A DNA stretch of 64,000 nucleotides from Eledone cirrhosa (taxonomy: Eukaryota). The translations under genes and the position numbers were made by a program. The stretch spans positions 22,630,001-22,694,000 of the forward strand of contig OZ024745.1 in NCBI GenBank assembly GCA_964016885.1, in the 5' to 3' direction. Under the pieces are notes generated by a model. It searched no databases. It was not told where the DNA came from and saw nothing but the letters and a program-made list of their open reading frames with translations. This document shows, piece by piece, positions 15,991 to 61,916 of the stretch. Positions within the stretch are counted from its first letter, which is position 1. Each line of letters opens with the position of its first letter.

Positions 15991-16184
15991 AGGAAAATGT
16001 TTATCCCCGACGGCAGAGCTCGAGCCGTTCCGACAGCTATTTCTGGACTCATAAATAGCCGTCGAAAGGACTTGAGCTCTGCCGGCGGGGTTAAACATTT
16101 TCCTATTACCCACTCTACTACCCTAAGTATTGAGTACTCTGGCGCGTTATGGTCCATCTGGTTCCTTACCACACCTCCTTCGTT
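15991..16184. mobile_element. two-armed PLE terminal insertion, family A
   Basis: 15991-16052 is an inverted copy of the sequence starting at 16053; (TA)n on both sides; homologues at 28171, 48121 and 52760. PLE identity is inferred from the architecture and the HHR 3' half. Confidence 0.75.
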
Positions 16185-16251
16185 ATATATATATATATAT
16201 ATATATATATATATATATATATATATATATTTATTAAAATAACAGATTAAC

Positions 16252-16300
16252 GTTTAAGCAAAGAATCGCTGCTTTCACCCTTAACGGGATCTTCTGAAAC
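16252..16300 (-). ncRNA. type I hammerhead-like ribozyme, CAGAAGA core variant
   Basis: Minus strand: gttt CAGAAGA t-ccc-gttaa-ggg-t GAAA gca-gcgattctt-tgc TT aaac. Confidence 0.7.
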
Positions 16301-17228
16301 TAACAAAGTCAATCTGTAAACGCAGAACTGGATATTTCAAAAAACGTTGCAACCGGAGGAAGACAGGAAGACGATACTTTGGTTCATGGTGACGTTCGCT
16401 GGCAAAGAACGGGAAAAAACGAATAAGATACGTCATTAATAGGAACGGTGAAAAACAATTACGTGCAAGGACAGAACCACGTTTATGGTATAAAAGAGGT
16501 CGTAGACTAATGTACTCTAAGTGGTGCATAGAGACGTTCTCTGGCAATGAACGAAAAAACGAAGATAATAAGTCATATGTGGAGCGTGGAGAACAATAGC
16601 GTGCAAAGCCAAAACCACGTAAATGGTATAGCAGAAGTCGTAGACTAAAATTCTAACTAGGAGACCGAATGAATCTCCGCTACAGAGTTAAGAACGAAGT
16701 AAATAAATACAATACAGAAGTAATAGGAACAAAGAAATACATACACGCAAACAGATACGTACATACACAAGCATACGCAAAACCTTACCATAGGTATACA
16801 AAACCACGCACATATAAATATGTGTATGTGTGTATGCTTGTGTACAAATAAATAAATAATTATATAAACGTATATAAGTAAATAAATACGTATATAACAA
16901 GCGCACACACATACCTACAATTAAATACATGAAGGTTCGGAGACGTAAGTCAACTAAAACAAGAAGTACACATATACACACACCCACCATACGTACGAAC
17001 CTGCATACTCACGCAGACGCAAAACTCCCATATACACATAACCAAGCCCTAAATACCAGAATATGTCAAAATTATACGCCAAAACAGTCAAATATACGTA
17101 CGAGAAGGTATACATACCTTCACAAAACATACGGGTAATATATACTTACCTATGCAAAAAGTAAAGGAAAAAACAAAACATATACTTAGCTCCCACATCA
17201 AGACGTAAATATCCACGTATAGATCGTG

Positions 17229-59822: not shown

Positions 59823-60637
59823 TGTCGTCCATACCCATGATCGTCTTGAGGTTAAAATCTAATATAAACGTGATTCACTTACCTAATTCACTGCAAATCT
59901 TGATCAATATTTATTGAAATATCTTGACAATTTTAAATTGAAATTTAAAATGGCAGAACTAGATATATATAATTATAAACCATCTATTTGCCTTATATAA
60001 TTGATATTTCTGCGGTAGCCTTAATATCATTTGTTAAGGGTATATAAAACCCTTGACGTGGGTATATAAAACCCTTGAGACTGAAAAGTGTGTCATCTGT
60101 GGGAATGGAACTCATATCTGCCGCATGCCCGACGGCTGAACTATCGTTACCCTAAGCGAGAATGACCATTTTTATGTTTCATCTTTCAACCAGTCCTTTC
60201 CTTTGTCCCGTAACTCCTCATGATAACGCATGTACGTCGTATCAACATATGGCGATTATAAGATACTTATTGACCTGGTGGAGCCCTTCGCCTTTCCAGG
60301 TCTGAGAACAGCAGATTTCTTCCAGCAGAGAAAGATAGAGAGTGACAGAATGGAAGTGAGAAAGAAATATAGAGGAAGAATGGAACCCACTGGAAATTTT
60401 TATCGAATTTGAATGGATGAAAGACAAAGTTAATGGATACCGCAAATTTTATCCGACGTTCCAATTCGCCGCCACCTTTCTACCAGTAGATGTAAACAAA
60501 TAAATAATTGATTTAAGAAGAGTTTATCGAATTTGAGTTCAAATTCAATCAATGCTATGTAAAATTGTTGTTTTTTCTATTGGCTAAAAGCTGAGACTTA
60601 AAATGATTGGTAGATGGTTACACTGACTTTGATGAAG

Positions 60638-60776
60638 GCACATGGCTTAGTGGTTAGAGCATTGGGCTTGCAATCGAAAGGTTGTGAGTTCAATTCTCGG
60701 ACCGGGTGATGTGTTGTTTCCTTGAGCAAAACACTTTATTTAACGTTGCTCCAGTTTACTCAGCTGTAGAAATGAG
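60638..60776 (+). mobile_element. second tRNA-derived SINE family (V-domain-like)
   Basis: TGGCTTAGTGGTTAG A-box, GAGTTCAATTCTC B-box, TGTTGTTTCCTTGAGCAAAACACTT core. Confidence 0.7.
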
Positions 60777-61659
60777 ATGATAGGGCTGGGGTCTCTATCA
60801 TTAAATTACCCAACACACCTCCAACGAGATATACCTTGATTGTAGCAGCTAACAATTATCTAATATATTTTCAGAATTCATATGTATCTTATTTTAATAT
60901 CTATGCCTTAGCTGATATTTAGTACATTCAGTCTATATTACTATTACTGCTTCAGCTCCTGTCAACCGTCTCTCAGATTTTACACAGAAATACATTCTTA
61001 GGTTGTTTGACAAATATGTATAAATATATGTATGTTTGTATGTATGTACCATTGTGTATATTTATATATATATATGTGTGTGTGTGTGTGTGTGTATAAT
61101 TAATTGCAATTATTTGCTTGTATTTATGAATGCGTATATATATATATAAATATATATATATATATATAGAGAGAGAGATACATATATGGATATACAGATG
61201 TGTATGCGTGTATATGTGTATATGTATATATATATATATATAAATTATTAATACAATAACAGAGATAGTTTAAAGCTAATCTCTGACTGGTAACCATCTC
61301 ACTCAACAAACATTAGGTTATATTTTAATATAAACCCAATTTAAGTGTTTGGGGTGCTAACAATATGTATTATGTGGAAAAGCCAGTTGTATTATTTTAT
61401 GAGATATAATTAAAGTTAAAATATATATATATATTTCGTTTCTGAAATATATATATATATATATATATGAAATAAAAAATCAAGTCATTAGAGATATACT
61501 TCACTGCTTTACGATCGTTTCTAGATGGTGATAATACATTGTATCTATACTCAGTTATTGATCTATGTAAGTTTACAAACTATCAGATAGAGAGAATATT
61601 TACTTACATGCATATCACCAGCTGATATATATATATATATAAATATATATATATATATA

Positions 61660-61916
61660 AATAAAGTAGGAAAGGTAAAGGAAAAGAGAGTGCTCTATGT
61701 AGGCTACAGAGCTTTTTAGTTATGTAATAAACAACATAAGAAAATTATTTCATTTACCAATGGTTTCTTGAAGACAGATATTTATGTCTGTCTTCATTCA
61801 TCAGGAAAAATTTTTTTAATAAAAAATGTTTCTGATCAATGAAGACAGACATAAATATTTGTCTTCAAGAAACCATTGGTAAATGAAATAATTTTCTTAT
61901 GTTGTTTATTACATAA
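61660..61916. mobile_element. two-armed PLE terminal insertion, family G-related, with two HHR copies
   Basis: 61720-61804 inverted vs 61832-61916; left arm tail shares GAGTGCTCTATGTA..CAGAGC with ~33150. Confidence 0.85.
61747..61808 (-). ncRNA. hammerhead-like ribozyme
   Basis: Minus strand: CTGATGA a-tgaagacaga-cataaata-tctgtcttca-a GAAA cca-t-tgg TA; the plus copy at 61832 has CTGATCA. Confidence 0.7.

What the first reader, a model, noticed from the sequence alone, without database searches (positions are those of the whole stretch)
15991..61916. A shared 'short-end / long-end' two-armed insertion rule across several distinct PLE families
Seen: at 15991-16184, 16227-19521, 19651-20149, 20233-20478, 27327-27607, 27648-27990, 28171-28342, 32659-33070, 41515-41985, 52760-52956 and 61660-61916 the insert is two oppositely oriented copies of one element terminus. 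Both 3' ends point outward, mostly into (TA)n. In each case one arm stops at a family-specific 'short end' (A: TTTTCCTA; B: TTTTAATAAAT; C: RTATAACAAT) and the other at a fixed 'long end' ~30-170 nt further downstream (A: CCTTYGTT; B: TTATTATTACTA; F: TTGTTAYCCCG). Inner ends vary. Established: PLEs form inverted pseudo-LTRs with a 3' tail, and Naiad PLEs target (AT)n. Inference: both ends of a cut in the self-complementary (TA)n target prime reverse transcription at two defined sites on the RNA, and the two cDNAs are then joined. I do not know of this described as a strict paired rule.
Basis: partly seen in the sequence, partly recalled or inferred. Interest (0 to 1): 0.82.

Follow-up and report, generated by a model that had tools for sequence, protein, structure and literature searches.

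The report
Paired start sites of Penelope insertions
These mirror-image inserts in TA repeats are end pieces of Penelope-type jumping genes in which one arm stops at a short and the other at a long fixed point; the one-sided "tail" is already described, but the near-perfect short-plus-long pairing, and a small conserved hairpin just behind both stop points in most families, suggest that both broken DNA ends likely start copying the same RNA, each at its own marked site.

Summary
All 11 listed inserts are head-to-head arms of Penelope-like elements (PLEs), one ending at a short (S) and one at a long (L) site. In 1.46 Mb (window plus 140 blind 10-kb stretches), 115 of 120 strict two-arm inserts of 17 families were S+L, none S+S or L+L, 5 unclassed. 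A few S+S exceptions and many unpaired arms exist. Linked ORFs have a C-terminal GIY-YIG domain (Hydra-clade and Neptune-like motifs), so these are not Naiads. In 20 of 115 pairs the L arm never reaches S, which excludes fold-back of one cDNA there. An RCTC-stem-TN-GAGY hairpin follows 16 of 27 tested sites (control 67 of 3400).

In print already: the inverted arm, the tail "often only at one end", and two RT start sites bounding the tail with both strands extended in vitro. I found no paper stating the strict pairing or the hairpins. The scan noted both before, in this genome and (pairing) in at least 8 genomes. Best reading: coordinated twin-primed reverse transcription, 0.6.

The parts
15991..16184 (.). 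Family A two-arm insert: S arm on - (about 15991-16049), L arm on + (about 16050-16184, 80-nt tail from 16104)
   Evidence: inner ends -57/-53 from S, no gap
16112..16135 (+). RCTC-stem-TT-GAGY hairpin 8 nt behind the family A short site
15877..15968 (+).
16227..19521 (-). Family B near-full element: S end at 16227 and body on -, plus a 29-nt L arm on + (19490-19518)
17229..19370 (-). 713-residue open frame (first Met at 19358): RT plus C-terminal GIY-YIG, with Hydra-type RWR, DKT, CxCx5C and CxH motifs
   Evidence: translation; ESM Atlas nearest clusters 0.99, GIY-YIG/RVT_1 families on part of the members at 0.96-0.97; no Pfam hit
16273..16296 (-). Hammerhead-like core of family B, with A at the normally conserved U4 position; activity untested
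   Evidence: pattern match
19440..19485 (-). First hairpin, 6 nt behind the internal copy of the B short site
19378..19396 (-). Second hairpin, 6 nt behind the internal copy of the B long site, just upstream of the ORF start
19651..20149 (.). Family C (second subfamily) insert: L arm on - left, S arm on + right; hammerhead-like core 19907-19934 (-)
20233..20478 (.). Family B insert: L arm left, S arm right; both inner ends at -72/-73, beside an Inr-like TTAGT
27327..27607 (.). Family D insert: 50-nt S arm left, L arm right; hammerhead-like core 27424-27446 (+); no linked ORF found, no hairpin
27648..27990 (.). Family E insert: S arm left, L arm right; hammerhead-like core 27714-27751 (-), hairpin 27918-27940 (+)
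28171..28342 (.). Family A insert: L arm left, S arm right, abutting a family G fragment (28121-28166)
32659..33070 (.). Family F insert: S arm left, L arm right, 171-nt tail
41515..41985 (.). Family C (first subfamily) insert: L arm left, S arm right, 60-nt tail
52760..52956 (.). Family A insert: S arm left (flanked by GA repeat), L arm right
61660..61916 (.). Family G insert: L arm left, S arm right; hairpin 61689-61712 (-), hammerhead-like core 61764-61804 (-)
33105..36346 (-). Broken Hydra-type coding copy of family G, ending at its L site (33105)
56651..58475 (-). Broken Neptune-like coding copy of family C, ending at its S site (56651)

Best explanation
These inserts are head-to-head pairs of 5'-truncated Penelope-like element ends, one stopping at a short and one at a long fixed site, and they likely arise because both 3' ends of the cut (TA)n target prime reverse transcription on the same RNA, one at each site. 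Shown: element order is ORF - 3' UTR - hammerhead - S - hairpin 1 - L - hairpin 2 - ORF start (partial tandem); the sequence behind S and L mostly begins with 3-6 nt of TAT/ATAT that matches the target; either arm may be the long, ORF-bearing one. Inferred: the element protein, probably as a dimer (predicted for PAc in PMC11167929), binds the two hairpins and aligns each (TA)n primer on the TAT patch 5-17 nt upstream. Each primer gets one site, which gives the S+L rule. Priming near the RNA's 5' end would run off at the transcription start and give the common stubs of 150-500 nt. The two cDNA 3' ends are then joined blunt or through 0-6 nt of overlap, by a template jump or host end-joining.
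For: Pairing: 115 of 120 strict pairs S+L, 0 S+S, 0 L+L; L on the left 60, S on the left 55; 12 of 14 relaxed pairs S+L; 13 of 14 recognised short stubs are of the opposite class. Two separate copying events: in 20 of 115 pairs the L arm lies inside the tail, so the S arm cannot be its copy, and inner ends vary independently. Related template: the S arm matched its own partner better than the median other copy in 64 of 80 pairs. Hairpin: 16 of 27 sites vs 67 of 3400 random element positions (strict rule 14 vs 4 of 3400); outer pair GC 9/AT 6/TA 1, first inner pair TA 8/CG 8, bulge begins with T in 16 of 16. It follows both S and L in A, B, E, K and O. Inner ends: 22 of 28 family A arms of each class stop 42-60 nt upstream of S, near an Inr-like TYAGT, several with an extra G. 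Raw reads of 3 runs of one study show TA loose ends at S and L and opposite-strand joints at the same hot spot. Literature: two RT start sites equal to the tail boundaries, both strands cut and extended (PMC11167929).
Against: In 95 of 115 pairs both arms copy the same stretch upstream of S; on one RNA this needs strand displacement, which is untested. Own-arm similarity could also come from time-structured subfamilies or gene conversion, and 12 of 80 pairs were below the median. The S+L rule also holds in families without the hairpin behind S under my rule (C, D, F, M, N, P, Q, R), so this hairpin is not the only signal. Exceptions: S+S in family A at L036:8343-8423, a possible S+S in B at L132, S+S plus L at L009, and a fully symmetric unit of an unassigned family at L101:8621-9515. 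PAc showed no strand difference in start-site use in vitro, and pairing per molecule was not reported in the parts I read. Target-site duplications cannot be read inside (TA)n, and no empty site was examined. The extra-G count is small (roughly 8 of 17 true junctions, by eye).
Confidence: 0.6

Rival explanations
1. Endonuclease-mediated resolution: a DNA intermediate with inverted arms is cut by the element's GIY-YIG endonuclease at the TAT/ATAT patch of S on one arm and of L on the other (Craig et al. suggest EN-mediated resolution for the tail).
For: Both sites mostly begin with a target-like TA patch. [quoted passage not shown]
Against: It does not by itself explain why one cut is at S and the other at L in 115 of 115 classed pairs. 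In PAc the two ends map to RT start sites. The hairpin has a variable stem with G-U pairs on the sense strand, which fits RNA better than a DNA site.
Confidence: 0.15
2. Twin priming by two independent ribonucleoproteins, or at two different pLTR copies of a tandem transcript, with the S/L choice fixed by something else (order of events or geometry of the cut).
For: It removes the need for strand displacement in the 95 of 115 overlapping pairs. Partial tandems carry S and L twice.
Against: Independent particles would choose S or L independently and give about 50% symmetric pairs. Arms resemble their own partner (64 of 80). Both arms often stop at the same template position.
Confidence: 0.15
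3. Fold-back or self-priming: one cDNA (or antisense template) snaps back and is copied to give the inverted arm (self-priming proposed in PMC3846280).
For: Many junctions are palindromic with 1-10 nt overlap (27 of 58 resolved junctions). L009 shows an S arm copied back together with about 130 nt of flank, so fold-back does occur and may explain the S+S exceptions.
Against: 20 of 115 pairs have an L arm that shares no sequence with the S arm. The S arm often reaches further 5' than the L arm, up to 3.2 kb against 29 nt in the window.
Confidence: 0.07
4. Assembly artefact, or selection bias in how the families were defined.
For: S and L were defined from asymmetric inserts. Palindromes and TA runs are error-prone. 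No locus-specific reads were laid.
Against: Arms differ from each other like aged copies. Ends are fixed across nine further chromosome-scale contigs besides the window's. Raw reads show the same ends and strand switches. Symmetric pairs of the 17 families would have been counted.
Confidence: 0.03

Closest known systems
EN+ PLE insertion unit with inverted 5'-truncated copy and one-sided tail (Craig et al. 2021, PMC8557442; Adineta vaga Pen2a, PMC3846280)
   Same: [quoted passage not shown]
   Different: Tails here are about 35-171 nt against the 30-40 bp described. The one-sidedness is counted (115 of 115 classed pairs) rather than called optional. Many inserts are ORF-less stubs.
PAc (Poseidon of Anolis carolinensis) internal initiation, PMC11167929
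   Same: Two internal start sites whose interval is the tail; AT-rich target; both strands extended; uncleaved RNA as template (arms here run through the predicted hammerhead cut site); initiation at a stem-loop.
   Different: PAc's sites lie inside the ORF at an AC-rich stem-loop, with no homology to the cut DNA. Here the sites lie upstream of the ORF, mostly carry 3-6 nt matching (TA)n, and each has its own hairpin. The parts of the paper I read do not state one-site-per-end pairing.
Hydra clade of PLEs (PMC8557442 section 11; File S1 lists (TA)n preference)
   Same: Short C-terminal-EN ORF with RWK-like, DKT, CxCx5C and CxH motifs, hammerheads, (TA)n target: families A, B, E, G, H, J, O, R.
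   Different: RWR instead of RWK. No twin hairpin or pairing rule in the passages and supplement rows I saw. Family C is Neptune-like instead.
L1 twin priming (Ostertag and Kazazian 2001; seen only as described in PMC2246262 and as a reference)
   Same: Both sides of the break prime on one RNA and give an inverted 5' part.
   Different: In L1 (recalled) the second primer anneals at variable internal sites upstream of the first cDNA and the two parts do not overlap. Here both sites are fixed and 35-171 nt apart, and the arms usually copy the same stretch.

Membership tests
EN+ Penelope-like elements | Single ORF with PLE-type RT and GIY-YIG endonuclease | tested here: met
   713-aa frame with YRDD, DKT and YIG motifs; ESM Atlas neighbours with GIY-YIG/RVT_1 on part of their members; Pfam and PDB searches blank. 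ORFs linked for A, B, C, E, G, H, J, O, R; none found for D, F, I, M, N, Q.
EN+ Penelope-like elements | Partial tandems (pLTR) with inverted 5'-truncated copy and tail | tested here: met
EN+ Penelope-like elements | Hammerhead ribozyme motif in the pLTR | tested here: met
   Pattern cores in B, C, D, E, G, K, N, R. A has a variant core read by eye. Rfam listed no hammerhead among the 150 of 180 matches shown. Cleavage untested.
EN+ Penelope-like elements | Target-site duplication | not testable with these tools
   Targets are (TA)n runs; no empty orthologous site was available.
Hydra clade | RWK motif, DKG changed to DKT, CxCx5C linker, CxH motif | tested here: met
   RWR+DKT in A, B, E, J; CxCx5C in A, B, E, G, H, J, O, R (definition)
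Hydra clade | Insertion into (TA)n | tested here: met
   File S1 rows
Hydra clade | Placement in the RT phylogeny with reference Hydra proteins | not tested
   No reference proteins were held as sequences; no tree built.
Neptune clade (family C) | C-terminal EN with CX2-5CxxC linker and CCHH motif | tested here: met
   Cx4CxxC linker and YIGET at L067; CCHH-like residues read by eye in the frame at 49190-49921; no tree
Naiad clade | N-terminal GIY-YIG endonuclease | tested here: not met
   EN lies C-terminal to RT in all linked ORFs
Naiad clade | No canonical hammerhead | tested here: not met
   Canonical-looking cores present in most families
TIR DNA transposons / MITEs | Equal terminal inverted repeats at both ends | tested here: not met
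   Ends offset by a family-fixed 35-171 nt; the symmetric units in the sample belong to other families

The most novel reading that the evidence does not exclude
Paired twin priming is the normal integration route of endonuclease-bearing Penelope-like elements. A dimeric RT-endonuclease is loaded on two tandem RNA signals (in the Hydra clade a covarying RCTC-stem-TN-GAGY hairpin pair), aligns each end of a double-strand cut in (TA)n on a short TA patch in telomerase-like fashion, and copies the same capped RNA twice. The inverted pLTR and the one-sided tail are its obligate footprint.
Probability: 0.4. Interest if true: 0.68.

Novelty: new member of a known kind. Interest (0 to 1): 0.42.

Why it matters
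How PLEs make their inverted and tandem structures is named as an open question in PMC8557442, and the only full-length in vitro system (PMC11167929) leaves the later steps unvalidated. A strict one-site-per-end rule turns the 'optional tail' into a readout of a coordinated two-ended reaction. It predicts defined experiments: hairpin mutants, marked templates, single-molecule products. PLE RTs are the sister group of telomerase, so a hairpin-anchored, short-alignment priming mode would bear on telomerase origins, and two-ended integration is of interest for RNA-templated insertion tools. In practice these stubs are abundant, look like MITEs or miRNA hairpins, and should be annotated as PLE ends. 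The score is held down because the architecture and the two start sites are already in print.

Tried and rejected
Pfam on five PLE frames: 0 families. PDB sequence search: 0 hits. Rfam e-value scan: the 150 of 180 matches shown were miRNA-type hairpins from repeats plus one scaRNA and one tRNA row, all below gathering score. An arm-length attempt with a library of other inserts was confounded by whole-insert matches and dropped; replaced by linear references, where E and O junction gaps are inflated by subfamily divergence and the P and F references carry unrelated upstream DNA. Family M's first S assignment was wrong (internal TA run) and was moved to +52..66 before counting. Most symmetric candidates among the 27 with offset of 25 nt or less proved to be internal TA runs of longer palindromes or look like TIR elements; the outer ends of one recurrent palindromic family were not mapped. 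The L+L candidate at L141 is two events. Hammerhead cleavage as the cause of inner ends was rejected, because arms run through the predicted cut sites. No RNA holder listed. Locus-specific read support was not obtained. No structure or complex prediction was run, so dimerisation of these proteins is untested. Searches for prior statement of the strict rule or the hairpin found none; subscription papers (e.g. Arkhipova 2006, Evgen'ev and Arkhipova 2005) and bioRxiv supplements were not visible and may describe more.

Full report
Check of the observation. Self-comparison and printing of the intervals showed two oppositely oriented arms at all 11 places. The window lies on a 135-Mb contig of a 3.0-Gb genome; no call names the organism. 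A first search with a family A long arm returned 40 scored matches, 30 as loci. By eye none of the 30 had a terminal long end at (TA)n on the opposite side, and most had the short end. That set is biased towards long arms, so it was not used for counts.

Blind test. I fetched 140 stretches of 10 kb chosen by round coordinates on 13 contigs, 1.464 Mb with the window. Of 1412 segments bounded by (TA)n, 139 had one end matching inside in reverse. Those with offsets of 25-200 nt fell into 35 clusters, 17 with two or more members. For these 17 families arm ends were bimodal (read-outs, the latter partly cut from view). Strict pairing gave 120 pairs: 115 S+L, 0 S+S, 0 L+L and 5 with an end classed 'mid'. 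On inspection four of the five are S+L with a divergent or misaligned end and one is interrupted by a second insert. Without the window the count is 105 of 110. One pair is an exact duplicate, leaving 114. L is on the left in 60 and S in 55.

Results against strictness. 188 terminal arms had no strict partner (95 S, 79 L, 14 mid). Relaxed pairing added 12 S+L, 1 S+S and 1 L+L; the L+L is two events. Of 174 unpaired S or L arms, 14 had a recognisable stub at the next TA run: 13 of the opposite class and 1 ambiguous, against a chance rate of 1.5% or less per family. About 15 arms join (TA)n directly at their inner end, so one-armed inserts exist. By eye there is an S+S at L036:8343-8423, an S+S with copied flank followed by an L arm at L009, and a symmetric unit of an unassigned family at L101. 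Families were defined from asymmetric inserts, so wholly symmetric families would be missed by design; the 27 near-symmetric candidates were inspected separately.

What the elements are. tblastn with the window's frames linked arms of A, B, C, E, G, H, J, O and R to ORFs in the same sense, which fixes the 3' ends as outward. The B frame (713 aa) and its relatives carry RWR, DKT, CxCx5C, YIG and CxH motifs, the Hydra-clade features of PMC8557442 section 11. Family C has a Cx4CxxC linker and is Neptune-like. The endonuclease is C-terminal, so Naiad is excluded. Internal copies show the order ORF - UTR - hammerhead - S - tail - L - ORF start.

Anatomy bearing on mechanism. (a) In 20 of 115 pairs the L arm lies within the tail; in 95 it passes S. 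Either arm can be the long one. (b) Of 58 junctions resolved within 10 nt, 27 overlap, 15 are blunt and 16 have 1-7 extra nt; alignment ends blur these values. (c) The S arm is closer to its own partner than to the median other copy in 64 of 80 pairs, and best or tied in 53. (d) Behind most S and L sites the element reads TAT or ATAT, then after 5-17 nt an RCTC-stem-TN-GAGY hairpin: 16 of 27 sites against 67 of 3400 control positions, with outer and first inner pairs covarying. The motif rule was drawn from these same sites, so the contrast is partly circular, and related families are not independent. It is absent behind S in C, D, F, M, N, P, Q and R under this rule. The one C long-site hit (L051) may be foreign sequence. 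(e) Inner ends cluster: 22 of 28 family A arms of each class stop 42-60 nt upstream of S. An Inr-like TYAGT (consensus recalled) lies at -58 in A and -71 in B, and roughly 8 of 17 arms that stop exactly there have an extra G, counted by eye because the automatic labels were crude. (f) Raw RAD-seq reads of three runs of one study, laid on a linear family A copy, show TA loose ends at both L and S, a roughly 20-fold depth drop at the hot spot, and opposite-strand joints there. Restriction-site bias may add to the drop, and these reads come from many copies, not from the window's loci.

Literature. PMC11167929 (parts 1-2 of 4 read: abstract, main text, start of methods): two RT start sites that bound the tail, both strands cut and extended, predicted dimer, unprocessed RNA as substrate, no strand difference in start site. 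[quoted passage not shown] PMC3846280 (passages): tail optional on one inverted pLTR, self-priming model. PMC2377424 (passages): 34-bp repeat, one or two copies. PMC2246262 and PMC3649969 (passages): L1 twin priming as cited. bioRxiv 10.64898/2026.07.22.740005 (passages): nothing on pairing. Seven searches found no statement of a strict pairing rule or of the twin hairpin.

Earlier notes of the scan. 22 notes in at least 8 genomes describe the same pairing, and several in this genome describe the hairpin pair. I had counted the pairs and seen the hairpins before opening them. They are AI notes and are not counted as support.

Verdict. The feature is real and regular. It is the known inverted-arm, one-sided-tail insertion of PLEs, here in Hydra-clade and Neptune-like families with longer tails. 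What the data add is the count, the exclusion of simple fold-back as the general route, and candidate RNA signals for both start sites. Coordinated twin priming on one RNA is the most likely mechanism (0.6). Interest 0.42.

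Noticed in passing
L009:1230-1600: Family A S+S unit whose left flank (about 130 nt, with deletions) is repeated in inverted form on the right, followed by an L arm; looks like a cDNA that folded back and copied through the target into the flank.
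   Followed up: partly
L042:3171-3400 (-) and family A generally: Family A hammerhead-like fold has a variant core (U3/A8 in place of C3/G8, read by eye) and a long stem II; the junction hot spot lies inside stem II.
   Followed up: partly
window 16273-16296 (-): Family B copies seen carry A instead of the conserved U4 in the hammerhead core; activity unknown.
   Followed up: no
L101:8621-9515: Symmetric TA-bounded unit with an internal partial tandem and a hammerhead-like core, of a family outside the 17; a possible counter-example to the rule.
   Followed up: partly
L049:2115-2590, L058:7032-7224, L062:5283-5644, L086:7545-7856, L113:6262-6744: Recurrent long palindromic family whose arms continue through internal TA runs; outer ends and class not mapped.
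   Followed up: no
L051:4330-4440: Family C long arm continues for 111 nt with a hairpin like the Hydra one and then ends in (TA)n at a tail-like word; a third end site or captured sequence.
   Followed up: no
L132:787-1830: Another large inverted two-arm unit with a hammerhead-like core in TA runs, lying between two family B short arms that both stop at -69.
   Followed up: no
window 13636-14688 (+): LINE-type RT fragment (Pfam RVT_1 E 4e-16, DUF6451 E 6e-9), unrelated to the finding.
   Followed up: no
window 49190-49921 (+) and 50394-50422: Second Neptune-like coding fragment followed by a family C short end.
   Followed up: partly
window 36517-48354: A dispersed repeat of about 190 nt occurs in both orientations several times; not examined.
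   Followed up: no
window 1852-4400, 42600-43850, 62500-63960: Long trinucleotide-based tandem arrays giving spurious low-complexity frames.
   Followed up: no
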